This document shows positions 1,076 through 55,700 of a stretch of 58,268 bases of DNA, piece after piece; position 1 is the first letter of the stretch, and every line of letters begins with the position of its first letter. The notes beneath the pieces were generated by a model. It worked only from the letters and a program-made list of their open reading frames with translations. It did no database searches and was not told the DNA's origin. This DNA comes from Patescibacteria group bacterium (lineage in GTDB: Bacteria > Patescibacteriota > WWE3 > UBA101185 > UBA10185), in the NCBI GenBank assembly GCA_016926555.1, contig JAFGOI010000002.1, positions 1 to 58,268 of the forward strand. The letters are read 5' to 3'. The position numbers were made by a program, and so were the translations under genes.

Positions 1076-2518
1076 CTAGATGTACTCCAACCTACCCGAA
1101 GATAAATTAAGTCTCTTATTTACACCTACCCGCTCAACAAAAAACCTGTCATGAGATACAAGAAGTAAAGTCCCTTTGTATTCTTTTAGACTTTCCTCTA
1201 TTACTTCCTTTGTTTCAATATCTAAATGGTTCGTCGGTTCATCTAATATGAGCATGTCATAATCATTGTGCGCGAAAATCGCAAAGGCAAAGCGTGCCCG
1301 TTCACCAGGGCTGAGATTTTGCACCTTCAGCTGAATACTATCCTTATCGAATAAAAATCTCTTCAAATAACCGTATGCTTTCTGATTTGGACAGTGAGTT
1401 TCATCCGTAAAGTGTTCCAATATGTTCTTGTTAAGATCTAGGTGAGTCTGTTTCTGCGCAAAATAACCTATCTCGATTGAGTTGCCTATTTTTACTTCTC
1501 CACTGGTTGGTTTTTCTTCACCAACTATCATTTTTACTAGAGTAGTCTTCCCCACCCCATTCGGCCCAAACAGCCATATCTTCTCTCCGGCTCTGATTTC
1601 AAAGGATAAATCTTGAAAAACTACATTATCCCCAAATAACTTCTCTACGTTCTCCATACGAACCATCAGCTTTTGTGATGTAATATCCGTGTTGAACTTT
1701 ACGGAAGATATTCGCTTATTTTCGTACTTTTCTTTTTTATCTTTGACAACTTCACGTTCTATCCTTTTTTTTGTAGCTCTAACAGCTTTTCCCCTTGCTT
1801 TTCCACCTTCGATTTTTCGAACACAATGCAATAGTCTCTCTAATTTCGCTTTCCGTTTAAGAAATAGGACGTATTCCTCATCCCATTTATCAATTAACTT
1901 TAATTTTTCCGATTTGTAGTTATCATAGTTTCCCACGAAGGTCAGCATTTTGCCTCTCTCCATTTCCCAGACTTCATCAACTGTACTATTAAGAAACTCC
2001 CTATCATGCGAAATCATTACTACTGATTTCTCTAAGCTTTTCAAGTAATCCTCAAACCAAATGATTCCTTCAATATCTAAATGATTTGTAGGTTCATCTA
2101 TAAGTAAAACTGTAGGATCATCGAGCAAGATCTCCATCAACTTAAGCTTTAGCTTTTGGCCTTCGCTAAGAGTCTCTATTTTCTGATACGGGTCATAATT
2201 ACTAAACCGAAGATCATTTACTAAAATATCAATAATATAAGAATCCCATTCATTCTCTAGTTTAGGCTCAAGACACTCCCCTACTAGTTCAGCATCGAAC
2301 TTAATTTCTTGTGGAATATAACCTATTGTTTCTTCGGTAATTTCAATATTTCCTGAAGTTAAATCTTCTTCTCCAACTATTAATTTAAACAGTGTGGATT
2401 TTCCGCAACCGTTTCGACCAACAAGTGCAACTTTCCTATTATTTCCTATTTTAAAGTTTAGGTCTGTAAAAAGGGGTTCTCCTACATATGTTTTTGATAC
2501 GTTTTTTCCTATGATCAC
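1076..2518 (-). CDS. ABC-F family ATPase (two nucleotide-binding domains, no TM)
   Basis: Two Walker A motifs (GRNGCGKST, GPNGVGKTT), LSEGQ/LSPGE signatures, two DEPTNHLD motifs and an interdomain linker. Confidence 0.92.
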   Translation of the reverse strand: MIIGKNVSKTYVGEPLFTDLNFKIGNNRKVALVGRNGCGKSTLFKLIVGEEDLTSGNIEITEETIGYIPQEIKFDAELVGECLEPKLENEWDSYIIDILVNDLRFSNYDPYQKIETLSEGQKLKLKLMEILLDDPTVLLIDEPTNHLDIEGIIWFEDYLKSLEKSVVMISHDREFLNSTVDEVWEMERGKMLTFVGNYDNYKSEKLKLIDKWDEEYVLFLKRKAKLERLLHCVRKIEGGKARGKAVRATKKRIEREVVKDKKEKYENKRISSVKFNTDITSQKLMVRMENVEKLFGDNVVFQDLSFEIRAGEKIWLFGPNGVGKTTLVKMIVGEEKPTSGEVKIGNSIEIGYFAQKQTHLDLNKNILEHFTDETHCPNQKAYGYLKRFLFDKDSIQLKVQNLSPGERARFAFAIFAHNDYDMLILDEPTNHLDIETKEVIEESLKEYKGTLLLVSHDRFFVERVGVNKRLNLSSGRLEYI

Positions 2519-2567
2519 TGTACGATTGTAGCACTGGTGATAAGATTTTCACCAGAATTCTGACTAT

Positions 2568-2621
2568 AAAAAAACAAAAGGCGTCCAATCGCTGCGATGT
2601 ATATGCAGTTCATGAACGCCT
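2568..2621 (-). terminator. Long hairpin plus U-tract, probable intrinsic terminator of the GC-rich gene upstream
   Basis: Minus strand AGGCGTTCA...TGGACGCCT with an inner CTGC/GCAG stem, followed by TTTTGTTTTTTT. Confidence 0.65.
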
Positions 2622-2676
2622 CTTGGGCAGTTAGTTCTTTGCCTTATCTCACGGGCCTCAGGTCCATGTGGTTTAG

Positions 2677-3534
2677 CTAATCACAATACCCTGTCGAAAG
2701 CTCCCCCGTTTCGATGTTGCCGCAGTAGAACTCGGTAATCATATAAACGTAGTCGGCAACCTCAAAAGACACAAAGGCCGGGTCGTGTATCAGGATGTCG
2801 AGAGCCTGTCCCGGTTGAATTGGAATGTTGAAGGGCGTACCCTCAGCCGTCACTCTCAACTGGCCGTTGTAAACCGGAGCTGTCCATACCGGAACAGTAT
2901 CAGTGTATGTAGATGGTTCAAGTAGTGCTCCGCTGATTGTTATAGAGGAGGGGATGTACCCCTGCACACTCATCACCCTCACGGTCCCGTCCATCACCAG
3001 CTCGAACGTATCGAAGAGCCTCTCCCTGGTTACTTGGATCATCCAATCAATGTAGCGTTCGTCATACTCACTGAGGTTTGTGTTATCCCTTAAGAACCTA
3101 CCGTTGATCGCGACCAAATCAGCTTCTAGATCGTTGCCCCGGCTGTCCTGAGAAAAGAGACTCTCCTCGTGACGGCCAAGTTGTGCTTTAACACCTTCCC
3201 ACTGAACGGTACCTTCCATAGCGGCGCCAAAGTCGGTGACGTCTTTTGGCAGCCACCCGGTGCGAACGTCGATTTGACGAATGTACTCGTTGATGGACAC
3301 ACTGTCTAATTCGTCGCACCGCTCAGCAACACTTGCCTCGACTTGCGCAACAATCCGTCCCTCAACGATACCCATGATCCGCTCTTGTGCTGTTTCCAAG
3401 TCCTGAACTTGTTTTTTCAAGTGGGAGTTCTGACGAGCCAGCAAACCCGTGAGAACAACGGTCACTACAAGCAGGAATACAAACGCCACGGTGAGCTCTT
3501 TACGAAGCCCACTCTTCCTAATACTGCGAAACAT
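2677..3534 (-). CDS. Hypothetical membrane-anchored protein (TM + coiled coil + extracellular domain), GC-rich orphan
   Basis: ORF track 2677..3552. Start moved to ATG 3534, which follows AAGGAGG at 6 nt. TM VAFVFLLVVTVVLTGLLA. Confidence 0.7.
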   Translation of the reverse strand: MFRSIRKSGLRKELTVAFVFLLVVTVVLTGLLARQNSHLKKQVQDLETAQERIMGIVEGRIVAQVEASVAERCDELDSVSINEYIRQIDVRTGWLPKDVTDFGAAMEGTVQWEGVKAQLGRHEESLFSQDSRGNDLEADLVAINGRFLRDNTNLSEYDERYIDWMIQVTRERLFDTFELVMDGTVRVMSVQGYIPSSITISGALLEPSTYTDTVPVWTAPVYNGQLRVTAEGTPFNIPIQPGQALDILIHDPAFVSFEVADYVYMITEFYCGNIETGELSTGYCD

Positions 3535-3566
3535 CTTTTGCCTCCTTAGCAAAGACTGGTGTCCTA

Positions 3567-3620
3567 CAACACACGTTGTGCCCCTCTTGGGATCTGTGTC
3601 TTGCCGACTCAGACTGTGGA
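3567..3620 (-). promoter_or_regulatory. Conserved structured leader motif, copy B
   Basis: TCCACAGTCT..GTCGGC.AGA..AGATCC...GGC.CA.ACG.TGTGTTG, shared with 5226-5292. Confidence 0.5.
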
Positions 3621-3691
3621 CAAATAACCATCTAGTTACTAAATGGCTAATTGTCCTATACCTGAGAAACTAAAGCTCATAAATACGTATA

Positions 3692-3774
3692 TGGGCTGGT
3701 TTGGGGTTGTAAAAAGATACTTCGTAGGTAGCGGCCTACTTGATCTATGTTTACAACTGTTCCAAACCAGCCCA
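3692..3774. repeat. 83-nt imperfect inverted repeat just downstream of the 470-aa gene
   Basis: TGGGCTGGTTTGG/CCAAACCAGCCCA is a 13-bp perfect arm. Inner pairs GTTGTAAA/TTTACAAC, AGAT/ATCT and GTAGG/CCTAC. Confidence 0.85.
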
Positions 3775-3788
3775 ATGGCTACACGTGT

Positions 3789-5186
3789 CTATCGTCCCAA
3801 AGATATCTCCTCAATCTGCCCCTGTCGGTGAACAACACCGTCCTCCGTCTGGTAGGGTTCGCCTGCAGAGTCGATAACCCAATAAATGGCGTTCTCGTAC
3901 CCGTCACAATTGGGCGATACCGTAACCACCGCGGGACCTCCGTATGTGTGTTCGCCAAGAGGGCGGTACCATGTCAGTTCACCAGTCTCGGAAACCGTAA
4001 TATATACAAAATCCCCGGGATCCGATTCCTGAGCTTCCTCATCCCAGGAGTAACCCTGGAAGAGTGAGATGAGATCTCCAAAACCGATGACAGCCCCGAT
4101 CTCTGATCGGACGCTGTTGGTAACACCAACGGTTACGATCAGAAGCTTATCCGAGGGCCAACCGTTAGGCCAAACCTGGCAGATCGTAGAGTCCCAATGA
4201 ACCTGGAAAGCAGCCTGCGAGCCGTAGTCGTCGGACCATCGAAACTCGTGCTGGTCATTCCCGGTGGAGACGTTGACCCAATCGGGCTGGTCGATCTGGA
4301 CCATACCGTTGTCCCCGCAGAAGTTCGGAATAGCAGATGACGATGTGGGAATGTGATAGTCGAGCATGATATCGCGGGTTTCGTCATCCCAGGTATCCAG
4401 TATCAGCGTGGGGCCGCTCCATTCGCCCGCAGCGTAAGTGAGAGTGTCCTTGAAACATTGCCGACCGATATCGGGCACCCCGCCGGACCACTGGATCTGC
4501 CCCAGGAATCGGCCATCCACACGATCAAACACAGCGTAGTGACCGTCCTCAGAAAGCGTGTTCGTGTTCATCAGGGCGTGGGGCAGGAGGGCTCTGTAAA
4601 CCTCCTCCGTAAGGTAGCCCCCACGGGGGATCTCAATATTCCCGATGCGCTCAAGGTAGCCAAGACAGGGTCCGTTGGTACTCATATACCTGCCTCCGAT
4701 GTAAGCACTAAAGTGCTTGCCTCCTGCGTAAGACCAGGAACACACATCGCCAACGTTCCGGATGATAGTGGAAACTTCTTCTCTTGCGATGTCATAGTCC
4801 TCACCGACACCGCTTTCCACCATCTGAACGTCGACTTTGTACGAACCCTCCCCCACCGTAGAGGCTACTACTGTGACCTCGACGGCGTACAAGTAACTGT
4901 ACTCCGGCAAAGGAGTCGGAGAAGGTGTGGCCGTTGCCCAAATCGAAGGAATGGGCGTCGCCGCAAACGCAACTGCAGCTGTCGGAACCGCTGTAAACGT
5001 AGCATAAGGTTCTGATGTAGACACCACTGCTGCCGTCACCGTAGCTGTGGGACTGGGCATCGTAATATCCGGCTCCCGCAACGCGGCAATCATCAAATAG
5101 ATCCCCTGCACCAAAGCGGCCACTGACAATGCGAGACACAGCAAAATTGAAATGCGAACATGCGGATTCTGAATCTTCCAAAACAT
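3789..5186 (-). CDS. Hypothetical membrane-anchored protein with Pro/Thr/Ala linker, GC-rich orphan
   Basis: ORF track 3789..5201. Start moved to ATG 5186 after GGAGG. TM ISILLCLALSVAALVQGIYLMIAAL, then linker PTATVTA...ATPSPTP. Confidence 0.75.
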   Translation of the reverse strand: MFWKIQNPHVRISILLCLALSVAALVQGIYLMIAALREPDITMPSPTATVTAAVVSTSEPYATFTAVPTAAVAFAATPIPSIWATATPSPTPLPEYSYLYAVEVTVVASTVGEGSYKVDVQMVESGVGEDYDIAREEVSTIIRNVGDVCSWSYAGGKHFSAYIGGRYMSTNGPCLGYLERIGNIEIPRGGYLTEEVYRALLPHALMNTNTLSEDGHYAVFDRVDGRFLGQIQWSGGVPDIGRQCFKDTLTYAAGEWSGPTLILDTWDDETRDIMLDYHIPTSSSAIPNFCGDNGMVQIDQPDWVNVSTGNDQHEFRWSDDYGSQAAFQVHWDSTICQVWPNGWPSDKLLIVTVGVTNSVRSEIGAVIGFGDLISLFQGYSWDEEAQESDPGDFVYITVSETGELTWYRPLGEHTYGGPAVVTVSPNCDGYENAIYWVIDSAGEPYQTEDGVVHRQGQIEEISLGR

Positions 5187-5225
5187 TTGATTTTCCTCCA
5201 CTTTCTATGTGATATAGGTTTTATC

Positions 5226-5292
5226 CAACACAGCCCGTGATGAGCCGCCTGGTGCGCAGGATCTCTCTCGCCGCCACGACAGAGACTGTGGA
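5226..5292 (-). promoter_or_regulatory. Conserved structured leader motif, copy A
   Basis: CACAG/CTGTG closing stem with internal TCTC..GAGA and CCTG/CAGG hairpins. Sequence blocks shared with 3567-3620. Confidence 0.5.
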
Positions 5293-5540
5293 AAAAACTC
5301 ACTCAACGTTTATAGATTTGAATGAATTTTGCCCACAGCCTCCCATGACGACTTATATGACATTTATAGACACATAAACTTTCAAAGTTCTTGAAAACAT
5401 AAAGCTGGAACTTATTCCAACTTTCTGTTAGCATTTTAGTACTATAGGGTGTTTACGGCTTGAGTAATCCTGAGTGTTTCTGAGTCGCGATTCTTCTGAA
5501 TATAAATTGTATTAATCTTACATATTGGTAAAATTACTAT

Positions 5541-7445
5541 ATGGGCACATATGGCGAAGGACAAAATAAACCGGAACTTCAACACCAAGATAGGCTTGAG
5601 TTTATTAGAGGGGAAGTATCCGAAAATCATGTTCTTGTACGGATGGATTATGAAACTCTAAAAGACAGAGCAAGGATAGAATGGGATGTTTTAGAACCTC
5701 TACTTGGAGGAGAATTTAAAGACGAATTGCTGGAAAAAGCACTTAGAAATCCGGGAGACTCAGTAACTTTAAAGGGGAGTACTGTACTTAACCTAATATA
5801 TGGACAGTATGTCTACAATACACAAACCGGTTACGCAGCAGAATCCTATAGGTCCGATATAGATGTGATGGTATCAGATCCAGAAGTGCTAGAAAGATTG
5901 ATCGAAAGCGGATTTGCCGTTGAAAATACGTATGCTGCAACCAAAGCAAAAGTCGGAGAAACACAAGTTGATATTATTTCAACAGAAACTATGAAAAATA
6001 TGGACATTGAAGCAATGAATGACATTGAAGCCTGGGCAGATACTCTTGAGGATCCCGAATTACAGGCTTATTTAAAGCATAACGCCAATTATTTTAAACA
6101 AGCTCTTCAGGGAGCCACGGAAAGGCAATTACTATCCTTACACAGTCTTTTTGGATATGAAGCTATTGGGATTAAAATTGAAAGGGATGAAAACGGGGAA
6201 CTACAAGCAAGTCTAGAGGATCCCACATGGATAGTTACTGATGATGTACTAGTAAAACAACAAATTAAGTTAAATAGAGCCAATGGTTTAGCGGGAGGTT
6301 TTCAAGTCACAATATACAATGAACCAAGTGTGAGATCATTTATGCTAGAAGCTTTTAGACACATGGAAACACCTTCAACTGGGGCAGATGATGGTGAAAA
6401 CAAGACTAATAGCACATTTCACTCCTCGACAAAGGTTCCCTTGTATACATTAGATGGGTATAGCAGAATGCTCAGAACCGCCTGCGAATTAAATGTTGGA
6501 GTTTATTGGAATCCCCTCGATCCCATATGTTTTTACAACCCAGATAGTTATAGAATGTACAGTACCCTATACAAAGTTGCTCAAAAAATTGATCAAGAAG
6601 GAATTATGTTTGAAGTTGACGATAAGGTTTTACAAAAAGATAGCGGAGAAACCCGAACTGCAGAAGAATGGTACAAAGAAAAAATGCAGACAGCGTTCGC
6701 AAGATCCTGCGTTGCCGATCCTATGCAGGCATTTAACAGAACTTTTGCATGTTTACCATTAGGTCGAACTATTGCAGAACCTGTTGCGGATACGTTTGAT
6801 AAGTATCATGAAACAGTTACTCCAAACACATTGCTCCCTGATCTAATTGATATATACGGTGTCGACACATTGTTAGGTAAATCAGATCGGAACGCTCCCG
6901 AGGGCCTTAAACAAGCAGCGTACGCGTTAGTGGGAAATAAAGAAGCTCTAGAAGCCAAACCCATGAGAACCATAGACAGATTAAATATACTATATTTGAG
7001 ATACTATGGAGAGGACTTGTTACTAACCTCAAGATTAGATCAGGTCCAAAGGAATGAAACAGATGAGAACTTGGATGACGATGAATATTTCGAAAAAGCA
7101 ATGCTGGAAAATGCAGGCTCCCACGGAAAAGATACTATTGCTGCTTTAAGAAATGATTGGATCAAGCAACACGGACTACCGGAAGGCGTTTTCGGTACTG
7201 TTACTATGAAGCATTATCCAGAAGGAATGTCTGAAATAATGGCAATGATTTTTGTAGCTAATGAAATGGACCCGGACGAGGGACGTGAGAAGATAAAACA
7301 AGTGGTAGATAACTGGATTCCCAGCGGAATACTTAAAGGAGAATGGAAAAAAGATGTATACGAATTTGAAATGGGTCTGGATGAAGAAAAAATCGTTAAA
7401 AGAATGAAAGAAATAAAAGCTGATATAGGGGCTAAACCTCTTTAA
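5541..7445 (+). CDS. Hypothetical protein, possibly a highly diverged class II (CCA/poly(A) polymerase-like) nucleotidyltransferase
   Basis: LKGSTV...SDIDVMV, VDIIST, LEDP and SRMLRTACEL occur in the order of class II NTase motifs. Confidence 0.5.
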   Translation: MGTYGEGQNKPELQHQDRLEFIRGEVSENHVLVRMDYETLKDRARIEWDVLEPLLGGEFKDELLEKALRNPGDSVTLKGSTVLNLIYGQYVYNTQTGYAAESYRSDIDVMVSDPEVLERLIESGFAVENTYAATKAKVGETQVDIISTETMKNMDIEAMNDIEAWADTLEDPELQAYLKHNANYFKQALQGATERQLLSLHSLFGYEAIGIKIERDENGELQASLEDPTWIVTDDVLVKQQIKLNRANGLAGGFQVTIYNEPSVRSFMLEAFRHMETPSTGADDGENKTNSTFHSSTKVPLYTLDGYSRMLRTACELNVGVYWNPLDPICFYNPDSYRMYSTLYKVAQKIDQEGIMFEVDDKVLQKDSGETRTAEEWYKEKMQTAFARSCVADPMQAFNRTFACLPLGRTIAEPVADTFDKYHETVTPNTLLPDLIDIYGVDTLLGKSDRNAPEGLKQAAYALVGNKEALEAKPMRTIDRLNILYLRYYGEDLLLTSRLDQVQRNETDENLDDDEYFEKAMLENAGSHGKDTIAALRNDWIKQHGLPEGVFGTVTMKHYPEGMSEIMAMIFVANEMDPDEGREKIKQVVDNWIPSGILKGEWKKDVYEFEMGLDEEKIVKRMKEIKADIGAKPL

Positions 7446-17921: not shown

Positions 17922-18380
17922 TTAGTTTAACACACTAAACTTAACGAAATCTTTAATTTCTATCTTCTCCCCCACCTTTGCTATAGTTTCATTAATAAGG
18001 TCTTGTACGTTTTTACTGCTATCTCGAATATAATCGTCCTTTAATAAATCGTCCACAGACTCATAATCATCTGTACACACCTGCATGGCAATTTCATCTG
18101 CCAATTTCTTGAAATCATCTGTTTTCGCGACAAAATCTGTTTCACACGCGACAACTACCAAACTACCTATCCTCCCTCCGGAATGGATATACGAAACAAC
18201 AATCCCATCTTTAGTTTCTCTATCAGCCTTCTTAGCCGCTTTATCACCAACTTTTTCCATTAGTATCTGCCTTGCCCTTTTGTAATCACCATTAGTTTCT
18301 TCTAGAGTTTTCTTAACTTCCAACACCCCAGCACCAGTTTCTTCCCTTAATTTCTTAATATTCTTTACATCTAATTTCAT
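17922..18380 (-). CDS. tsf: Elongation factor Ts (short form)
   Basis: IKKLREETGAG, ACETDFVAK, KVGEKIEI. Confidence 0.94.
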   Translation of the reverse strand: MKLDVKNIKKLREETGAGVLEVKKTLEETNGDYKRARQILMEKVGDKAAKKADRETKDGIVVSYIHSGGRIGSLVVVACETDFVAKTDDFKKLADEIAMQVCTDDYESVDDLLKDDYIRDSSKNVQDLINETIAKVGEKIEIKDFVKFSVLN

Positions 18381-19504
18381 TATTTGTCCTCCTTCTTTTT
18401 ATCAATCTTGGATTTTTTGTCTGACTTTTCTTTTTTAGCCAATTTACCGATTTCCTTCATAAGCATATTAATTTGGGATGCAACATTTCTTTCCTCCTGA
18501 TCCAAATAATCGAACGCGGCATTCTCCCTAAGGTCTTTATTTCCCTCGGCAGCTTTCCCCCTTTCGAGGATAACTTCTTCTCTCTTTTTCTTCAGCTCTG
18601 AAAGTTGGTCACGAAGTTGATTGATTTTCGACCTTTTCTTTAAGTCTTCATCCCCAGCTTTACTCTTCCCTTCCCTTTCACCCTCATCAAGTTTCTCACC
18701 AGGTTCCACATACTCGTCATCTACCTTTACCACTCCTTCCTCTATATTGGGTTTCGCCTCTTCTTTTTGGATACTTTCCTCTTCGCTTTCTTCCTCCTTT
18801 TTACTCAATTCATACTCCTTGTACCCAGTTTTAATCGCGGCAGAGATTGATTTCAAAACTAATAAAATAGCTTTAATAGCATCGTCATTCCCAGGAATAG
18901 GATAATTCACTTCGGTAGGGTCAGAATTCGTATCTATTAGAGAAACAATCGGAACATTACATCTTTTTGCTTCTTTCACCGCTGTTTTTTCTCTTCGAGG
19001 GTCAATTATAAAAATAGCTTTAGGAAGTCTTCTTAGGTTAGTTATTCCGCCATATGTCACTGTTAATTTTTCAATCTCACGATCAATAAGAAGTCTTTCC
19101 ATCTTCGTATACTTCTCAAACTCTCCCGCATCCCTCTTTGAAAGATAATCCAGCAATTTATCTATGTTTTTTCGGATAGTACGAATATTGGTTAGCGTGC
19201 CCCCAATCCATCTTTCAGTAACATACATAGCACCGCAATTCTTTGCTTCAAGTTCAATAGTTTCGGCAGCCTGTCTTTTTGTTCCTACAAATATTACATC
19301 TCCACCTTTACTTGCCACCTCGTACAGAAATTCACATGCTTCCTTGAGTAAACTTTCAGTCCGCTCCAAATCAATGATATGAACTCCTTTTTTAACAGTG
19401 TAAATATACTGCTCCATCCTCGGATTCCATCTTCGTGTTCTGTGTCCAAAGTGAACACCTGCGCTTATCATTTCTTTAATTGTCGGTATATTAAATTTAG
19501 CCAT
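18380..19504 (-). CDS. rpsB: 30S ribosomal protein S2 with C-terminal acidic linker and GreA-like coiled coil
   Basis: AGVHFGH, RWIGGTLTN, DTNSDP, PGNDDA. Tail contains QLRDQLSELKKKREEV...DLRENAAFDYLDQEE. Confidence 0.96.
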   Translation of the reverse strand: MAKFNIPTIKEMISAGVHFGHRTRRWNPRMEQYIYTVKKGVHIIDLERTESLLKEACEFLYEVASKGGDVIFVGTKRQAAETIELEAKNCGAMYVTERWIGGTLTNIRTIRKNIDKLLDYLSKRDAGEFEKYTKMERLLIDREIEKLTVTYGGITNLRRLPKAIFIIDPRREKTAVKEAKRCNVPIVSLIDTNSDPTEVNYPIPGNDDAIKAILLVLKSISAAIKTGYKEYELSKKEEESEEESIQKEEAKPNIEEGVVKVDDEYVEPGEKLDEGEREGKSKAGDEDLKKRSKINQLRDQLSELKKKREEVILERGKAAEGNKDLRENAAFDYLDQEERNVASQINMLMKEIGKLAKKEKSDKKSKIDKKKEDK

Positions 19505-28729: not shown

Positions 28730-28804
28730 GCCAGCGTAGCTCAGTGGCAGAGCAATCCCCTTGTAAGGGATAGGTCGTGAGTTCAAATCTCACCGCTGGC
28801 TCCA
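28730..28804 (+). tRNA. tRNA-Thr(TGT)
   Basis: GCCAGCG/CGCTGGC acceptor stem, ATCCC-CTTGTAA-GGGAT anticodon arm, GTTCAAATC, encoded CCA. Confidence 0.96.
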
Positions 28805-28864
28805 AGAGAAACTGCCTAGATTAAGTTTCGAAATTAGGTAAAATACTATTACTTGAGAATTTGT

Positions 28865-28950
28865 GCCGGGATACCAAAGTGGCCAAATGGAGCGGTCTGT
28901 AAAACCGTTGGTTTATACCTTCGTAGGTTCGAATCCTACTCCCGGCACCA
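28865..28950 (+). tRNA. tRNA-Tyr(GTA)
   Basis: GCCGGGA/TCCCGGC, CTGTAAA loop, long variable arm, GTTCGAATC, CCA. Confidence 0.96.
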
Positions 28951-29111
28951 GGGAGAGTTATATTTCCAAACTGACAAATGGGCTAACTGGTGTGTTCTCA
29001 CCTTTTATTACCCGACCCTCTCTTGCAAATAGAAAATAATGGAACAAGCAAAACATCAATGATAGAATTTGGTACGTCGACAGTATTAGCTATGAAATAC
29101 GATGATACTGC

Positions 29112-29188
29112 GCCCGCTTAGCTCAGCTGGTTAGAGCGCATCCATGGTAAGGATGAGGCCGGCGGTTCGAATCCGCCAGCGGGCTCCA
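29112..29188 (+). tRNA. tRNA-Thr(GGT)
   Basis: GCCCGCT/AGCGGGC, CATCC-ATGGTAA-GGATG, GTTCGAATC, CCA. Confidence 0.96.
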
Positions 29189-29255
29189 TAGAAACTCCTT
29201 AAAAAACTACACCTAAAATGAGTCTCCAAAACTAATGATATGGTAAAATACCATA

Positions 29256-29624
29256 ATGCCAACAAATACATGGAGACATGAAAATAAGGATAAATTACAG
29301 AGTTATAGAAGAAAGTGGTACCAAAAAAACAGAAAACACGCGATAAATAAATCGAAGGAAAGAAAAAGGAATATAAGAAAATGGCTAGTAGGTTACAAAT
29401 CTCATATTAACTGTTGTGTCTGTGGGGAAACTCATCCAAGTTGCCTAGAATTCCACCACAAAGACCCTTCTAAAAAGGATCTCAACATTTCTGCAGTAAT
29501 AAATCAAGGGTGGAGTATTAGAAGAATCACTACCGAGATAAATAAATGTAGTGTATATTGTGCTAATTGCCACCGTAAACTACACTATAAAGAAACGAAG
29601 GGGCGTGGTGTAATGGTAACATAA
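29256..29624 (+). CDS. HNH endonuclease-like protein
   Basis: CCVCG....CLEFHH.DP..K and KCSVYCANCHRKLH, with a basic N-terminal helix. Confidence 0.85.
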   Translation: MPTNTWRHENKDKLQSYRRKWYQKNRKHAINKSKERKRNIRKWLVGYKSHINCCVCGETHPSCLEFHHKDPSKKDLNISAVINQGWSIRRITTEINKCSVYCANCHRKLHYKETKGRGVMVT

Positions 29625-29672
29625 CTCTCTCCAAAAGAGTCGCTGGGGGTTCGATTCCCTCCGCCCCTGCCA
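29599..29672 (+). tRNA. tRNA-Trp(CCA)
   Basis: AGGGGCG/CGCCCCT, ACTCT-CTCCAAA-AGAGT, GTTCGATTC, CCA. Confidence 0.95.
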
Positions 29673-49721: not shown

Positions 49722-52700
49722 ATGCCCTCCTCTGCCGAAAAAAAACCAAATATATCTTCTCTAGAGAAAACACAATTGAGTGTTTCTGAAGCTGCAGCAT
49801 ATCTAAAGGTATCTCCTTCGACACTACGAAGACTTGAATCAGAAGGTGAAATCAAGGCAATTAGGCAACCCAATGGTTACAGACTATTTGAACTAAACGA
49901 TCTATTGAACCTAAAAAAATCCCTAGAAATAAAGAAAAACGAGAAGAAAATCCAAAAGCAGATAGAGAAAAAGACAGTGAAAAGAGTACACCAGATCCAA
50001 AAAAATCAAAGGGAAGTAAAAGTAAGCAACCAATATGTAGTAAATAACGTTATATATGGTCAACCAAATCCAAATGTATTTTATAGTATTTCAAAGGCAT
50101 CAAAGTACCTTGGTATATCCCCATCTACCTTGAGAAGAAAGGAAAAATACGGAGAAATAAACTCCTACAGAAAATCTAACAGACATAGGGTATTTAATCT
50201 AAATGATCTAAAAAAACTCAAAGTAAAACTAACTGAAGAAAAAAAATACAAAGACGATCATACATTAGAAAAAAAAGAAATCGCAACCCAAACTAGAATA
50301 CAAAAACAGAAGGCAATACATGAAAAAATTGAGGAATTCGAAGAAAAACTAAATCAGATAGCCCAGTTTAAACCCTCCCAATTACCTAGCACAAGGGTAA
50401 AAGGGCCGGCTGGCACTTCCCATGTTGTAGTGCGAAAATACTCCTCACAAAAGGGCTTAATTCACGATAGAATTGAAAAAAGAAAACTAAATTATGGAAT
50501 CTTGTTAGGTCTTGCATGGTTAGTTACCACATTGGGAGTTGCAACAACGACAATTATACTAAGCAAGAAAGACTTAAATATACTCGCAAAGAGAAACACA
50601 TACAACACATACATGCTCCAAGGTGGAAACGTGTTGGGACTCGCAGACAAATTGCAAACTTATATTTTCAGAATTAATGTTGCAAGTGTAATGGAGAAAT
50701 CTCTTGCTATAAAAGATACTTTGGAGGTAGAACATCTCTCAACACTTAAAGGGGGCATAACAACTTTAGGTTCTTATGTCGAAACCGGAACACTAAACTT
50801 CACTGATACAGGTGATATGAATAATTTGTTAGCAATCGATGATACAACAGAGACAACACTTGAAGAAGCCTTAGACATCAGAGGAGACGTAATCGGAGAT
50901 AGTTTACTTGATGTAAAAATTGCAGAAGATATTGTAGATGATGGTCACTTAGTTAATACTCTTACATACACAGGAGACTGGGACTTTGGTGGTACATGGG
51001 GAATAGACGGAGCCACTGTTGAAGCTACCGCAGATGAAATAAACTTACTAAGTGGATTAAGTGCGACTACGGAGGAACTAAATACATTATCAGGGGTTAC
51101 TATAGAAGACGGAGGAATAGTATACTCTGACGGATCAACCTTCTTAACAGACGCAACCAATCTTACCTGGGACTCATCAAGCTACAGACTAGGCATAGGA
51201 ACAAATGCACCAAACTATGCACTTGAAGTAAACGGATACACAGGGATCTCTTCGGGATACGACTTGTTGATCGGAGGAATTGGTCTAAGCGATGTTGGTA
51301 CATCTAGCACTACATCAGGAGCTTCGCTAATAAGTGCTTTTGATGAATTTACAAGCACAGACCAGACTAATCTTCAGGATATTCTTAGGGAATTTGACGC
51401 AAATATCGGCATAGCAGGAATCAGATATTGGGAACTGTATGGAAATACTGTTTCCACAATACTGCCAACATATGACATGTCCGTGGGAGGATCCGAACCT
51501 GGATCTTCTCTTTATTTTGATGCGGATGCCGAACTTTTGACTCTAACAAACACAACATCCGGAGTCTCTTTTATTGTTAACGATCAGGCTAACGACACTA
51601 CCCCATTTGCTATTGATAATGCCGGAAATATCGGAATTGGTACTTCAGCCCCAAATTATAAACTAACAGTTGACGGTACTGTGGCAATAAGAGAAACAGG
51701 AGCGTCTCCACATTATTACACGATATTACAAGCAGACGACCAACCAAACAACATAACATACACCTTGCCTGAGAATTACCCCGCTGATTTTAACTTTGTA
51801 CTAGCAGGTGACCCTACAGGGGATCTTAGATGGGCTTCAGTATCTGGCGTTGGCAGCATCACTGGTAGCGGTTGGCCTAGCTACATTACCAAATGGTCTA
51901 GTGGATCAACGCTAGGAATCTCCGTTATGTATGAAACCGAGGGAAAGATTGGTATTGCAACAACCGCTCCCGATTACATGCTTGATATTGCCGGTACATT
52001 AAATATGACAAACCTATACATAGATGATAACGAGGTTATATCCACAGCCGCAGAAATAAATTACCTAGATGGATCAAGTATAACGACAGGAGGCGTGGTT
52101 TTTGCGAATGGAACAAACTTCACACAGGATGTTACAAACCTTTTCTGGGATAACACTAACAACTATCTTGGCATAGCCACTTCCACACCCAACGCTGCAT
52201 TAACCGTAGGAAACAACGAACAATTCACAGTAGACTCTTCAGGAAACGTAAACACTACAGCCGGAGTCCTTTGGGATTTATCGTCGGTAATCCACAGCGG
52301 ATCAGAACCTCAAGGATTTAAACTACCCCAGGGAAATGGTCTAACCAGCATGACCATAGCGGCTGGTGAGGGCTACATTGCGTGGGATTCAAGTGATAAA
52401 AAACTAAAAGCATTCGACGGAACCGGGTGGTTCGATGTAGCTTACGGAGCTAAAGTTTTATGGACTGACGCAGGTCCACATGTATACGCAGATAACTTTC
52501 CCCAATTCGTAATTTCGGATCTTCATCGAATCGGCATAGGAACTTCAACTCCCTCCTATCTATTAGATGTTGCAGGAACAATGAATACTAATACGCTACT
52601 AATAGCGGGCTCTACAATAACTTCTTCGGCGTCAGAAATAAATTTCTTAGACGGCGCTACGGTCATTTCTGGGGGCTTAGATTTTGGAAACGGTACTTTC

Positions 52701-55700
52701 ATAACCCAAGATGCAGAAAACCTTTTCTGGGACGATTCTGGGGATCGCCTGGGAATTGGAAACTCCAACCCACAATACACACTCGATATAACAGGAAATA
52801 TTCGAATAAGTAATTTCTCGGGAAGCGATACAAATGAAATTGTGATATCCGACTCAGGTGAATTAGGAACCCGAACAGTTGACTCACGAGTTTGGGGAAC
52901 TACACTTCTGGATGGAAGTGGACCTGCAAATTACATAGCCAGATTCCTCGATAGTAATACTATAGGCATCGGTATACTATATGATAGTGGAAATGCCGTA
53001 GGTATAGGGAATACTGCCCCCGCGCACATGCTGGACGTGGCAGGAACGATGGCATCACAGGGTTTAGTCTTGGCTGGCACAGCTGTAACCTCATCTGCTA
53101 ACGAAATTAACATTTTGACAGGTGCGACAGTGTCAACTGCTGAAATTAATTATTTAACAGGCTCGTCCGTTCTAACGGGGGGCATTGTCTTCGGAAATGG
53201 GGCAAACTTTGCACAAGATGTCACAAATATCTTCTGGGATAATACAAATAACTACCTCGGTATAGCCACATCCACCCCAACAGCAGCGCTAACTGTAGGA
53301 AATAATGAGGAGTTTACTGTGGATTCATCTGGAAATGTAACGTCCGCAGATGGTACCTTGTGGGACTTATCAGATATTGCGCACAATGACTCTGCAGTGC
53401 AGGGGTTTAAGTTACCACAAGGAAATGGTCTGACCAGTCTGGTCCCCGCAGCCGGAGAAGGTTACATCGCATGGGATTTAAATGATCAGAAATTAAAAGC
53501 ATTCGACGGAACAGGATGGTTCGACGTAGCCTACGGCGCTAGGGTCTTGTGGACGGATGCCGGCCCGCATGTATATGCAGACAACTTTCCTCAATTTGTA
53601 ATTTCGGATTTACATCGAATCGGTATAGGCACCTCAACCCCCTCCTACTTACTGGATGTAGCAGGAACCGCTGCTGTACAATCTCTAATACTAAACGGAG
53701 GAACAATTACTTCATCAGCTTCCGAAATAAACATATTGGATGGCGCTACTGTGACATATAACGAACTAAATTTTCTAGACGGCGCATCGGTCACGAACGG
53801 TGGACTGGTATTTGGAAATGGAACATACCTTACTCAAGACGCAGCGAACATATTTTGGCAAGACACAAACAATAGATTAGGAATAGGAACAAGCTCTCCG
53901 AACTACACACTTAGTATAAACGGAACACTGGGTTTTATAGAAGTCGGCACTGAGCCGACCCCGCAGTTTTACACAATATTTCAAGGTGGAGACCAAAACC
54001 AAAACATAACTTACACATGGCCCGTAGATTATGCAGGAGGAAACAATTACGTTTTATCTTCAGATACCTCCGGTACACTAGAATGGTTAGATCTCGCGGC
54101 TGCAGGCTCCGTAATTGGGTCTGGTACTCCAAACTACGTAATGAAATGGTTAACCACGCAAAATGCTACAATTTCTCAACTATATGATGATGGAACCTTT
54201 GTAGGTATCGGAACTTCTGCACCATCTTACCTTTTAGACGTAAGCGGTACGCTTAACACACTAAACTTATTTTTGGCCGGATCCGAAGTTAGCACAACCG
54301 CAGCTGAACTAAATATTTTAGATGGAGCAACTGTTACAACTGCTGAGGTTAACTACTTAAGCGGCTCATCCGTACTTAACGGCGGAGTTGTTTTTGGCAA
54401 TGGTACAAGATTTACTCAAGACATAGCTAATTTCTACTGGAACGATGCTACTAATAGACTTGGAATTGGCAATACATCGCCATCCGCAACATTTTCCGTA
54501 GGTTCAGCCTCTCAATTTGCGGTAGATAACTTGGGAAATATTCTATTGGACGCCAATATGACGATTTCCAATTCACGCCTAGTAGATCTATCGGGAATAA
54601 TTCATGCCGACACCGCTCCCCAGGGTTTAAAACTCCCACAAACCGGATCATTAACCAATATGGATAACGCGTTGGCAGGTGAAGGATATATCGCCTGGGA
54701 TAATACAATAGATAAACTCATGGCATTTGATGGAACAACATGGTTCGACGTTGCTTACGGTGCCACAGTTCTATGGTCGGATGCTGGACCCCATATATAC
54801 GCAGATAATTATGGGCTTTTCGCTATTACAGATTCAGGTCGCGTCGGAATTGGCACCTCTACTCCTTCATTCAATTTAGACGTTGCGGGAACCGTAAACA
54901 CTACGAATCTCTATATAGCTGATACTGCAGTTACTTCATCCGCAAATGAACTGAATTTCCTGGATGGCACATCAGTTATTTCGGGAGGAATAACCTTTGG
55001 AAATGGTACATATATTACCCAAGATGTTTCCAACTTATTCTGGGATAACTCGAATAACAGACTCGGTGTCGGAACTAGTTCACCTGGGTATGAAGTTACC
55101 ATTAATGGTTCCCTCGGATTTATTGAAGTTGGTACTGAACCTGTTCCCCAGTTCTACACGATCTTTCAGGGAGGGGATCAATACCGAAATATTACATACA
55201 CATGGCCTACAGACTACGCGGGCGGGGATGATTTCTTATTAGTCTCAAACGCATCGGGAACGATGAGATGGATGGATTTAAGTCAAACTGATACGATTTT
55301 TGGAAGCGGCATCACAAACTTTATACCAAAATTCTCAGACACCGATACCATTACTGTCTCACAGCTATATGATGACGGGACATATGTCGGGATCGGAGAT
55401 TCAAACCCAGCTCATTTATTAGATGTAGGAGGAACTACCGCTACTATCGGTTTCATACTCAGCAACGTAGCAATTACTGCTGACGGAAATGAAATAAACA
55501 TTCTAGACGGGGTAACAGCAAATGCGGGAGAGATTAACTATCTAGATGGTGCATCTGTCCTTATTGGAGGTATCACTTTCGGAAATGGAACATATATAAC
55601 CCAAGATGTATCTGAGTTGTACTGGGATGCAAGTAACGACAGACTCGGACTTGGTATAACTAATCCATCTTATACTCTGGACATAACCGGAAACATGAGA

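What the first reader, a model, noticed from the sequence alone, without database searches (positions are those of the whole stretch)
18440..18630. Ribosomal protein S2 carries a GreA-like coiled coil with both catalytic acidic residues
Seen: after the S2 core and an ~60-aa Glu/Lys linker, the ORF reads QLRDQLSELKKKREEVILERGKAAEGNKDLRENAAFDYLDQEERNVASQINMLMKEI. It then ends in a Lys-rich tail whose stop overlaps the tsf ATG, so this is not read-through into a neighbour. Known: the GreA N-terminal hairpin has the pattern L.EEL..LK..R..I...I..A...GDL.ENAEY..A...Q.....RI..L, and the tip Asp and Glu enter the RNA polymerase secondary channel to stimulate transcript cleavage. Both are kept (D-L-R-E-N), but the GreA C-terminal RNAP-docking domain is missing. 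Inference: the 30S subunit tethers an anti-backtracking finger, so the trailing ribosome could rescue or modulate RNAP. This would be a covalent form of transcription-translation coupling.
Basis: partly seen in the sequence, partly recalled or inferred. Interest (0 to 1): 0.85.

Follow-up and report, generated by a model that had tools for sequence, protein, structure and literature searches.

The report
Ribosomal protein S2 fused to Gre finger
In this tiny uncultured bacterium the only ribosomal protein S2 gene ends in a flexible linker and a helical hairpin related to the finger that Gre factors push into RNA polymerase, so the ribosome itself may carry a tool for rescuing stalled transcription.

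Summary
The only rpsB gene (window 18380-19504, minus strand, 374 aa) has four parts. They are a complete S2 core, a 60-aa Glu/Lys-rich linker modelled as disordered, a 62-aa hairpin that matches Pfam GreA_GreB_N at about the curated cut-off, and a Lys-rich tail. Its TAA stop overlaps the tsf ATG.

The hairpin is a real Gre N-domain homologue. It belongs to a small, apparently undescribed family of free-standing 52-136 aa proteins with only the Gre N-domain. These occur in 32 of 85 other genomes of the same Patescibacteria family, often next to gyrB, and keep the tip Asp and Asn invariant and the tip Glu in at least 90%.

This genome has no free copy and has the S2-fused one instead. A second fused S2 (421 aa, 59% identical, sister in both trees) rules out a one-off chimera. 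A canonical two-domain greA is also present.

A complex model places the hairpin in the beta-prime secondary channel, touching the NADFDGD active-site motif (score 0.65, best control 0.14). That may reflect memory of solved Gre complexes.

Function is inferred: a ribosome-tethered Gre finger that acts when the ribosome is close to RNA polymerase. This is a new variant of a known kind.

The parts
18380..19504 (-). rpsB, whole ORF with stop: 374-aa S2 / Gre-hairpin fusion (P0001). It is the only S2 gene in the genome.
18812..19504 (-). S2 core, residues 1-231
   Evidence: Pfam Ribosomal_S2, residues 12-227, 285.3 bits, full profile. Block-mean pLDDT is 85 for residues 1-10 and 88-98 for residues 11-230. 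71% identical to P0031 (165 of 231).
18632..18811 (-). Glu/Lys-rich flexible linker, residues 232-291
   Evidence: 18 E and 10 K in 60 residues, and only 30% identical to P0031 with indels. Residues 255-281 have pLDDT under 50. All relatives' S2 proteins carry comparable low-complexity tails.
18446..18631 (-). Gre N-domain-like antiparallel helical hairpin, residues 292-353
   Evidence: PF03449 at 25.8 / 25.1 bits against a cut-off of 24.5. Family profile 107 bits. Best PDB sequence hits are GreA and GreB. AF2 hairpin, mean pLDDT 90.1. 61% identical to P0031 (38 of 62).
18521..18535 (-). hairpin tip D324-L-R-E327-N328, which aligns with the GreA D41...E44 acidic pair
   Evidence: D and N are invariant, and L, R and E are kept in at least 90% of 43 family sequences. 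Aligned to the DLKEN of GreA 1grj. Partner residues 32-47 are in the modelled interface, which includes beta-prime N206/D208/D210 of NADFDGD.
18383..18445 (-). Lys-rich C-terminal tail, residues 354-374
   Evidence: It continues helix 2 in the models at lower confidence.
18387..18394 (-). AAGGAGGA Shine-Dalgarno-like sequence for tsf, inside the last rpsB codons
   Evidence: read directly from the sequence
17922..18380 (-). tsf (EF-Ts, 152 aa). Its ATG overlaps the rpsB TAA by one base.

Best explanation
Shown: the sole ribosomal protein S2 of this Patescibacteria genome is a natural fusion of four parts. These are the S2 core, a linker of about 60 aa modelled as disordered, a Gre N-domain-type helical hairpin with the acidic tip D324/E327, and a Lys-rich tail. 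The hairpin descends from a free-standing paralogue family with only the Gre N-domain, found in the same bacterial family. One lineage, known from two sequences, lost the free gene and fused it to rpsB. Inferred: the hairpin still works as a secondary-channel finger of RNA polymerase. In canonical Gre factors the C-terminal globular domain supplies the affinity for RNAP. Here that domain is absent, so the tether to the 30S subunit would supply local concentration instead. The finger would then enter the channel only when a ribosome (a 30S taking up nascent mRNA, or the leading 70S) sits next to RNAP. The most likely activity is stimulation of transcript cleavage in backtracked or misincorporated complexes. 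The canonical GreA would serve uncoupled polymerases. In effect this would be a covalent, proximity-gated link between translation and transcription.
For: 1. The fusion is real. The frame is continuous and rpsB-tsf translational coupling is intact. There is one S2 match in the genome. A second fused S2, P0031 (421 aa), sits on a contig listed as 226,511 bases from a different source, and is 59% identical. The two are sisters in the S2-core tree (100/97) and in the hairpin tree (98/93).
2. Selection acts on the hairpin. Identity between the two fused proteins is 71% in the core, 30% in the linker and 61% in the hairpin.
3. Gre homology. The profile search fades from small family members into full-length GreA-like proteins of 145-150 aa.
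4. The tip is conserved. D41 and N45 are invariant and E44 is kept in at least 90% of 43 sequences.
5. The module came from a free-standing gene. It is 36-47% identical to nine free-standing proteins but 21% to the genome's own GreA. The family is strong in 33 of 86 family genomes, of which only G000 is fused. G000 has no free copy, and its gyrB-DHH-gyrA locus lacks the gene that relatives carry there.
6. Structure: AF2 gives a hairpin with helices 2-38 and 46-90 at pLDDT 90.1. In the whole protein the hairpin is separated from the core by residues 255-281 at pLDDT under 50.
7. Complex model of the hairpin with the genome's own beta-prime residues 330-1222: score 0.65, best of 3 controls 0.14. 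The mark was reached by 58 of 80 solved complexes and 2 of 110 mismatched pairs. These counts hold only roughly, because my own alignments were used. The runs agree in at least 76% of contacts and the partner pLDDT is at least 73. The interface includes fragment residues 206, 208 and 210, which lie in NADFDGD (fragment 206-212). It also includes 498-509, inside a stretch I recognise as the bridge helix, and 642-651, inside GEPGTQLTMRTFH, the trigger loop; both names are from recall.
8. Literature passages read: uS2 is listed in the RNAP interface of both the 30S-RNAP complex and the expressome (PMC6566652). [quoted passage not shown]
Against: There is no functional, expression or proteomic data. 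The fusion is known from only two sequences. I could not fetch the contig of P0031, so its synteny is unchecked. The Pfam score is borderline: 22.1 bits in the whole protein, under the 24.5 cut-off. Foldseek cannot tell this hairpin from generic helical hairpins: no hit reached E <= 0.001, seryl-tRNA synthetase and LSD1 arms rank beside GreA, and 1grj is rank 4. GreB-RNAP complexes are solved (6ri7 and 6rin are listed), so the complex pass may be memory of likeness, and it was run on a beta-prime fragment without beta. Acidic tip residues do not prove cleavage: Gfh1 keeps them yet inhibits (PMC4598747). Ribosomes far outnumber RNAP, so a constitutive finger on every 30S could also be harmful or irrelevant. 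Whether the linker can reach the channel in any coupled geometry is not modelled. A canonical GreA is present, so there is no obvious need.
Confidence: 0.5

Rival explanations
1. The fusion is real but incidental. The small paralogue with only the Gre N-domain landed between rpsB and tsf and lost its own start. It does whatever the free-standing proteins do, and tethering to the ribosome has no role. It might even be released, by proteolysis or by internal initiation.
For: Only one small clade has the fusion: 1 of 33 family genomes with a strong match, plus P0031. 32 relatives manage with the free protein. The linker is long and poorly conserved (30% identity). An in-frame GTG at V258 has a purine-rich, SD-like stretch just upstream.
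Against: The fusion has persisted to 59% overall divergence with the frame, hairpin and tip intact. The free copy was not found in G000, which is 92% complete. There is no in-frame ATG/GTG/TTG within the last 25 codons before the hairpin. Purine-rich Glu/Lys codons look like SD sequences by composition alone.
Confidence: 0.2
2. The hairpin enters the secondary channel but acts as an inhibitor or gatekeeper, in the manner of Gfh1 or Rv3788 or as an anti-Gre factor, rather than as a cleavage stimulator. It might, for example, pause RNAP until the ribosome is properly engaged.
For: Gfh1 and Rv3788 keep conserved acidic tip residues yet inhibit catalysis (passages of PMC4598747). A canonical GreA already covers cleavage. 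The family has its own extra invariants, G33, A36 and N45, and an R at position 43.
Against: The tip motif D-L-R-E-N-x-x-[YF] aligns residue for residue with the GreA D-L-K-E-N-A-E-Y. Nothing seen here separates the two activities.
Confidence: 0.15
3. The hairpin family has left RNAP altogether. It would serve a ribosome- or nucleic-acid-related role, such as a spacer or arm on the 30S solvent side, or a gyrase-linked function suggested by the gyrB neighbourhood.
For: The RNAP-binding C-terminal domain is absent in the whole family. The tails are Lys-rich. There is frequent gyrB adjacency. Foldseek finds generic hairpin arms just as well.
Against: An invariant Asp and Asn and a near-invariant Glu at a solvent-exposed hairpin tip are hard to explain without a catalytic-site target. 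The complex model scored 0.65 against 0.14 for the best control, with the caveats given.
Confidence: 0.1
4. It is an assembly or sequencing artefact: a chimeric join, or a lost stop codon, between rpsB and a separate small gene.
For: The genome is a metagenome-type assembly in 13 contigs.
Against: A second fused protein with the same architecture comes from a different source at 59% identity. The stop-start overlap with tsf and its SD are intact. The locus lies about 18 kb inside a 58-kb window.
Confidence: 0.03

Closest known systems
GreA / GreB transcript cleavage factors (Pfam PF03449 N-domain plus PF01272 C-domain)
   Same: The hairpin is a homologous N-terminal antiparallel coiled coil of the same length, ungapped against GreA residues 12-73. 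It has the same acidic tip, D..E followed by N. In the model it sits in the beta-prime secondary channel reaching the NADFDGD motif.
   Different: It has no C-terminal globular RNAP-docking domain. It is attached to ribosomal protein S2 through a 60-aa linker. It is only 21% identical to the genome's own GreA. Activity is untested.
Free-standing proteins with only the Gre N-domain, in the same Patescibacteria family (unnamed; loci L034-L042, L046, L052; P0002-P0040)
   Same: They have the same hairpin, at 36-54% identity, and the same invariant tip. The fused modules nest among them in the tree.
   Different: They are separate genes of 52-136 aa, often beside gyrB. 15 of 41 in my alignment end in [KR]-W-[LF], which both fused forms lack. 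I found no description of this family in print with the searches listed under Tried and rejected.
Gfh1 / Rv3788 (Gre-like inhibitors)
   Same: They are Gre-fold secondary-channel binders that keep acidic tip residues (passages of PMC4598747).
   Different: They retain the C-terminal domain and they inhibit catalysis. Whether the S2 hairpin stimulates or inhibits is unknown.
DksA / TraR
   Same: They are small secondary-channel factors with an acidic-tipped helical element. TraR is a minimal form (passages of PMC4598747).
   Different: They belong to an unrelated sequence family with a zinc-finger globular part. They are not fused to a ribosomal protein, and no Pfam match to them was seen.
NusG / RfaH bridging of RNAP to ribosomal protein S10
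   Same: It works alike in principle: a physical link between RNAP and the 30S subunit (review PMC6566652, passages).
   Different: NusG is a separate, non-covalent adaptor that binds the clamp, not the active-site channel. There is no homology.

Membership tests
Ribosomal protein uS2 (PF00318) | Full-length match to the S2 profile | tested here: met
   285.3 bits, profile 1-216/216, residues 12-227
Ribosomal protein uS2 (PF00318) | Acts as the genome's S2: single copy, in the conserved rpsB-tsf arrangement | tested here: met
   One S2 match in G000. The gene order is topA-rpsB-tsf-frr, with the stop and start overlapping.
GreA/GreB N-terminal domain (PF03449) | Profile match at or above the curated cut-off of 24.5 bits | tested here: met
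   Met narrowly: 25.8 bits on the tail alone and 25.1 bits in the six-frame genome scan, but 22.1 bits when scored within the whole protein. Reinforced by the family profile, whose two best PDB hits are GreA and GreB.
GreA/GreB N-terminal domain (PF03449) | Antiparallel coiled-coil hairpin of Gre length | tested here: met
   AF2 gives helices 2-38 and 46-90 at pLDDT 90.1. GreA 1grj superposes at rmsd 1.1 over 61 columns, but Foldseek E-values are 0.12 or worse and generic hairpins score alike. The sequence alignment to GreA 12-73 is ungapped.
GreA/GreB N-terminal domain (PF03449) | Two acidic residues at the tip (E. coli GreA D41 and E44) | tested here: met
   D324 and E327. D is invariant and E is kept in at least 90% of 43 family sequences.
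Full Gre factor (GreA/GreB/Gfh1) | C-terminal globular domain (PF01272) that binds RNAP | tested here: not met
   The only PF01272 match in the genome is the separate greA on contig 7. The S2 tail ends in a Lys-rich stretch.
Full Gre factor (GreA/GreB/Gfh1) | Binds in the RNAP secondary channel | tested here: inconclusive
   Complex model score 0.65 against 0.14 for the best control. The mark was reached by 58 of 80 solved and 2 of 110 mismatched pairs. Contacts agree in at least 76% and the partner pLDDT is at least 73. The interface includes NADFDGD residues. It may be memory of solved Gre complexes, and it is a model, not a measurement.
Full Gre factor (GreA/GreB/Gfh1) | Stimulates (or, for Gfh1, inhibits) transcript cleavage | not testable with these tools
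   Needs biochemistry.
Free-standing Gre N-domain-only family of this Patescibacteria family | Hairpin with the family motif, nested in the family tree | tested here: met
   107 bits to the family profile. 36-54% identity. Inside the 32-row clade, apart from the GreA-like rows.
Free-standing Gre N-domain-only family of this Patescibacteria family | Separate small gene of 52-136 aa, often beside gyrB, often ending in [KR]-W-[LF] | tested here: not met
   It is fused to S2. The gyrB locus of G000 lacks the gene. There is no W-[LF] end.

The most novel reading that the evidence does not exclude
The S2 fusion is a Rosetta stone for the whole family of proteins with only the Gre N-domain. In this Patescibacteria family, a Gre finger without its own RNAP-docking domain would be delivered to the polymerase by the ribosome. 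In two lineages the link would be covalent, through S2. In the others it would go through the Lys-rich tail and the terminal [KR]-W-[LF] peptide. Transcript cleavage or proofreading would then be gated by the presence of a coupled ribosome. That would offset the loss of fidelity that a pushing ribosome causes in E. coli (abstract and passages of PMC10135430).
Probability: 0.2. Interest if true: 0.85.

Novelty: new variant of a known kind. Interest (0 to 1): 0.66.

Why it matters
Known links between transcription and translation are non-covalent and act on the outside of RNA polymerase, such as NusG or RfaH to S10, or direct contacts with the 30S. A ribosomal protein carrying an active-site-directed Gre finger would be a different principle: the ribosome would reach into the polymerase's catalytic centre. 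It would also show that the Gre C-terminal docking domain can be replaced by a tether. It would define a new minimal class of secondary-channel factors in reduced genomes. The idea can be tested with recombinant proteins, without culturing the organism. If the fusion proves incidental, it is still a clean example of a gene moving and fusing, and it uncovers an undescribed Gre paralogue family.

Tried and rejected
Read support. The look-up of sequencing runs listed one DNA holder, which may be the source sample, and two RNA runs holding next to none of the words; no RNA holder was listed. Read laying laid only two trivial pieces of one Logan contig, of 26 and 19 bases. The junction therefore could not be checked at read level, and nothing can be said about expression.

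More fused loci. The search for homologous proteins on residues 285-374 found only the query among 190 candidates. With the two fused tails as query and lengths 'longer' it found only P0001 and P0031 among 4,186 candidates. Both are word-index searches and so have limited reach. Two scans of metagenome contigs were run. The tail alignment gave 588 pattern matches and 0 confirmed. With P0031 as query there were 18 loci; 17 of them matched no further than residue 250, and one short piece matched residues 175-246. The genome-contig scan gave 7 loci. I opened two of them (L046, L052) and both hold free-standing genes; the other five I did not open. The contig of P0031 could not be fetched, so its neighbourhood is unknown.

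A combined alignment of S2 proteins and the small proteins (A6) misaligned the small proteins onto the S2 core. I discarded it. The whole-protein fold used S2 sequences only (A7, 21 rows).

S2 tails of relatives. My script found an S2 ORF in 28 of 30 loci (not in L022 or L026), and I read their tails by eye only. The formal test is the six-frame profile search.

Literature. ('GreA' with 'Patescibacteria') was swamped by 'great/greater'. One search (GreA, 'ribosomal protein S2' and 'secondary channel' as whole words) found 0 papers. One search ('GreA_GreB_N') found 0. Searches found no paper, in the listings I read, that describes an S2-Gre fusion or a protein with only the Gre N-domain. Supplements are closed and subscription journals are not searched, so domain-architecture tables there could hold it. 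That an isolated GreA N-domain keeps reduced cleavage activity while the C-domain binds RNAP (Koulich et al. 1998, J Mol Biol) is recalled; I did not see it here.

Considered and set aside: an internal start that would give a free hairpin. The only in-frame candidates are TTG at residue 233, GTG at 258 and 266, and ATH (ATC or ATA) codons at 245, 254 and 294. This is kept as part of a rival explanation.
Full report
What is there. The ORF at window 18380..19504 on the minus strand encodes 374 aa. Pfam finds a complete Ribosomal_S2 domain (residues 12-227, profile 1-216/216, 285.3 bits). It also finds GreA_GreB_N at residues 292-353, profile 6-67/71. That match scores 22.1 bits within the whole protein and 25.8 bits on the 124-aa tail alone, against a curated cut-off of 24.5. 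The six-frame scan of the genome scores it 25.1 bits, over the cut-off. Between the two domains lie 60 residues with 18 Glu and 10 Lys. After the hairpin comes a 21-aa Lys-rich tail. The TAA stop shares one base with the ATG of tsf, and an AAGGAGGA sits inside the last rpsB codons. The neighbours are topA upstream and tsf, frr and an RseP-type protease downstream.

Is the Gre likeness real? The window's genome (G000) has 872,428 bases in 13 contigs and is 92.3% complete. It holds a canonical greA on contig 7: 158 aa, PF03449 at 92.3 bits and PF01272 at 87.8 bits. The S2 tail is the only other PF03449 match, and it has no PF01272 part.

Searching 41 related genomes with the whole protein gave S2 in 37. 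In nine genomes of the same family it also gave separate hits of residues ~288-372 to small ORFs elsewhere, at 40-50% identity. These are free-standing proteins of 76-121 aa. They share a sharply conserved core with the S2 tail (EKGLAAE-NKDLREN-x-x-YDYW). They align with the genome's own GreA so that the tip D and E coincide. Identity to the S2 tail is 36-47% for the small proteins and 21% for GreA.

A profile of the tail plus the nine small proteins found E. coli GreA (1grj, E 0.0014) and GreB (2p4v, E 0.014) as the two best of 177,635 distinct PDB sequences. The GreA alignment is ungapped over residues 12-73, with DLKENAEY on DLRENaaY.

The same profile, run against 1.84 billion representative proteins, gave only 49 hits at E <= 0.001, of which 37 were at <= 1e-10. 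All but one are 52-150 aa. The four weak hits of 145-150 aa that I fetched continue well past the hairpin, unlike the small family members, and I read them as full-length GreA-like proteins.

In a 43-sequence alignment the tip Asp and Asn are invariant. Gly33, Ala36, Leu42, Arg43 and Glu44 are kept in at least 90%.

AF2 with this alignment gives a helical hairpin: helices 2-38 and 46-90, mean pLDDT 90.1. Foldseek puts GreA 1grj at rank 4, with rmsd 1.1 over 61 columns. No hit reaches E <= 0.001, and seryl-tRNA synthetase and LSD1 hairpins score alike. So the case for homology rests on sequence, not on fold.

Is the fusion real, and where did it come from? The one long hit is P0031, a 421-aa protein from a different source on a contig listed as 226,511 bases. 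Its source names it small subunit ribosomal protein S2. It has the same architecture and is 59% identical overall (218 of 367). By region, identity is 71% in the core (165/231), 30% in the linker (18/60), 61% in the hairpin (38/62) and 43% in the tail (9/21). The hairpin is thus conserved almost like the ribosomal core, while the linker drifts and has indels.

The two fused proteins are sisters in a tree of 43 S2 cores (100/97). They are also sisters in a tree of 48 hairpins (98/93). There they nest inside a poorly resolved clade of free-standing proteins, away from the GreA-like rows. A single fusion event is the simplest reading.

Among the 86 species genomes of the same GTDB family, 33 have a strong match (>= 55 bits). 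In 32 of them the open frame is 77-139 aa, and only G000 is fused. The other matches of that call, at 26-34 bits, have open frames of 153-206 aa (one of 288 aa contains a stop), which fits canonical GreA. In the whole class (134 genomes) the family is found in f1 only, 32 of 85 besides G000. The single outside hit is weak, at 41.5 bits, with a 167-aa frame. The Gre C-domain, and so canonical GreA, is present in 81 of 86 family genomes and in 57 of 58 good-quality ones. The small protein is therefore an accessory paralogue.

In relatives the small gene often lies directly after gyrB or beside the DHH-gyrA pair (L037, L038, L041, L042 and L052). In G000 the gyrB-DHH-gyrA locus is intact but has no such gene; the gap between gyrB and the next gene is 48 bases. 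The family profile finds no second copy in G000.

All S2 proteins of the relatives already carry low-complexity Glu/Lys/Ala-rich tails, 23 to about 120 aa past the conserved GY motif, and none shows a hairpin. So the small gene appears to have been captured into a pre-existing disordered S2 tail. In a whole-protein AF2 model the block-mean pLDDT of the core is 85 for residues 1-10 and 88-98 for residues 11-230. Residues 255-281 fall under 50, and the hairpin is again confident.

How it may work. What follows is inference. Reviews state that secondary-channel factors bind RNAP through their C-terminal globular domain. They insert the coiled coil, with two acidic tip residues, towards the active centre (passages of PMC4598747). 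The hairpin here keeps Gre length and tip but lacks that domain.

A complex model of the hairpin with the genome's own beta-prime residues 330-1222 passed the tool's mark. The score was 0.65 and the best of 3 controls 0.14. The mark was reached by 58 of 80 solved complexes and 2 of 110 mismatched pairs, and these counts hold only roughly because I supplied my own alignments. The runs agree in at least 76% of contacts, and the partner pLDDT is at least 73.

The interface lists fragment residues 206, 208 and 210, which lie in the NADFDGD motif at 206-212. It also lists 498-509 and 642-651, which lie in stretches I recognise from recall as the bridge helix and the trigger loop. On the hairpin side it lists residues 32-47, which include the tip. 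GreB-RNAP structures are solved (6ri7 and 6rin are listed). The pass may therefore only show that the module looks like a Gre finger to the model. It does not show binding.

The review PMC6566652 lists uS2 in the RNAP interface of both the 30S-RNAP complex near the Shine-Dalgarno site and the expressome (passages). bS1 is anchored on uS2 in mRNA-delivery complexes (PMC10983998, passages). A 60-aa flexible linker from S2 could thus plausibly reach a neighbouring polymerase, though I did not model the geometry.

The mechanism I favour is a Gre finger of low intrinsic affinity, whose effective concentration at RNAP is set by the proximity of the ribosome. The canonical GreA would serve uncoupled polymerases. 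A trailing ribosome speeds E. coli RNAP at the cost of fidelity (PMC10135430, abstract and passages). A ribosome-borne cleavage finger would be a logical counterweight, but that is speculation.

Rivals. (a) The fusion is incidental and the tether has no role. (b) The hairpin is a Gfh1-like inhibitor or gatekeeper. (c) The family has left RNAP for another target. (d) It is an artefact. The second fused sequence and the intact coupling to tsf make (d) unlikely. The invariant acidic tip argues against (c). Nothing here separates (b) from cleavage stimulation. Rival (a) stays open, because only two fused sequences are known.

Compared with what is known. By sequence the module belongs to the Gre N-domain superfamily. 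It is not a Gre factor in the full sense, because the C-domain test fails. Its nearest kin are free-standing proteins with only the Gre N-domain, for which I found no description (searches; supplements and subscription journals were not searched). In principle it works like NusG-type bridging, but it is covalent and aimed at the catalytic channel. I rate it a new variant of a known kind. It would interest specialists in transcription-translation coupling, but it is limited to two uncultured lineages and lacks any functional data.

What could not be done. Read-level validation, expression data, the context of P0031, cluster membership and earlier findings were all out of reach.

Noticed in passing
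L034-L042, L046, L052 (for example L037:2944-3255 minus, L041:2950-3246 minus, L042:2992-3243 plus, L052:3995-4267 plus): There is a free-standing family of proteins with only the Gre N-domain (52-136 aa), confined to this Patescibacteria family among the class genomes searched. It is often found directly after gyrB or beside the DHH-gyrA pair. 15 of 41 representatives end in a C-terminal [KR]-W-[LF] peptide after a Lys/Pro-rich tail. This could be a docking peptide for an unknown partner.
   Followed up: partly
L005-L033 (rpsB of relatives): Every S2 protein I read in this family and its class carries a low-complexity Glu/Lys/Ala-rich C-terminal tail, 23 to about 120 aa past the conserved GY motif, that ends Lys-rich. 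This is unusual for bacterial S2, and it is the context into which the hairpin was inserted.
   Followed up: partly
L045:3619-9294 (G000 contig 13): The gyrB - DHH phosphoesterase - gyrA cluster of the window's genome lacks the small Gre-like gene that relatives carry there. Only 48 bases separate gyrB from the next gene.
   Followed up: yes
window 17922-18380 (minus): EF-Ts is only 152 aa. Its best-scoring stretch matches only positions 3-76 of the 204-position Pfam EF_TS profile.
   Followed up: no
window 18731-18733 (minus), codon V258 of rpsB: An in-frame GTG in the linker is preceded by GAGGAAGGA. It could be an internal start giving a free 117-aa hairpin protein, or it could be just purine-rich Glu/Lys codons.
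   Followed up: no
window 28730-29669 (plus): A cluster of four tRNA genes (Rfam RF00005, 58.8-73.3 bits).
   Followed up: no
window 2001-6000 and 52001-58000: G+C is 0.43-0.48 in these stretches, against 0.33-0.42 in the rest of the window. Rfam found no rRNA there.
   Followed up: no
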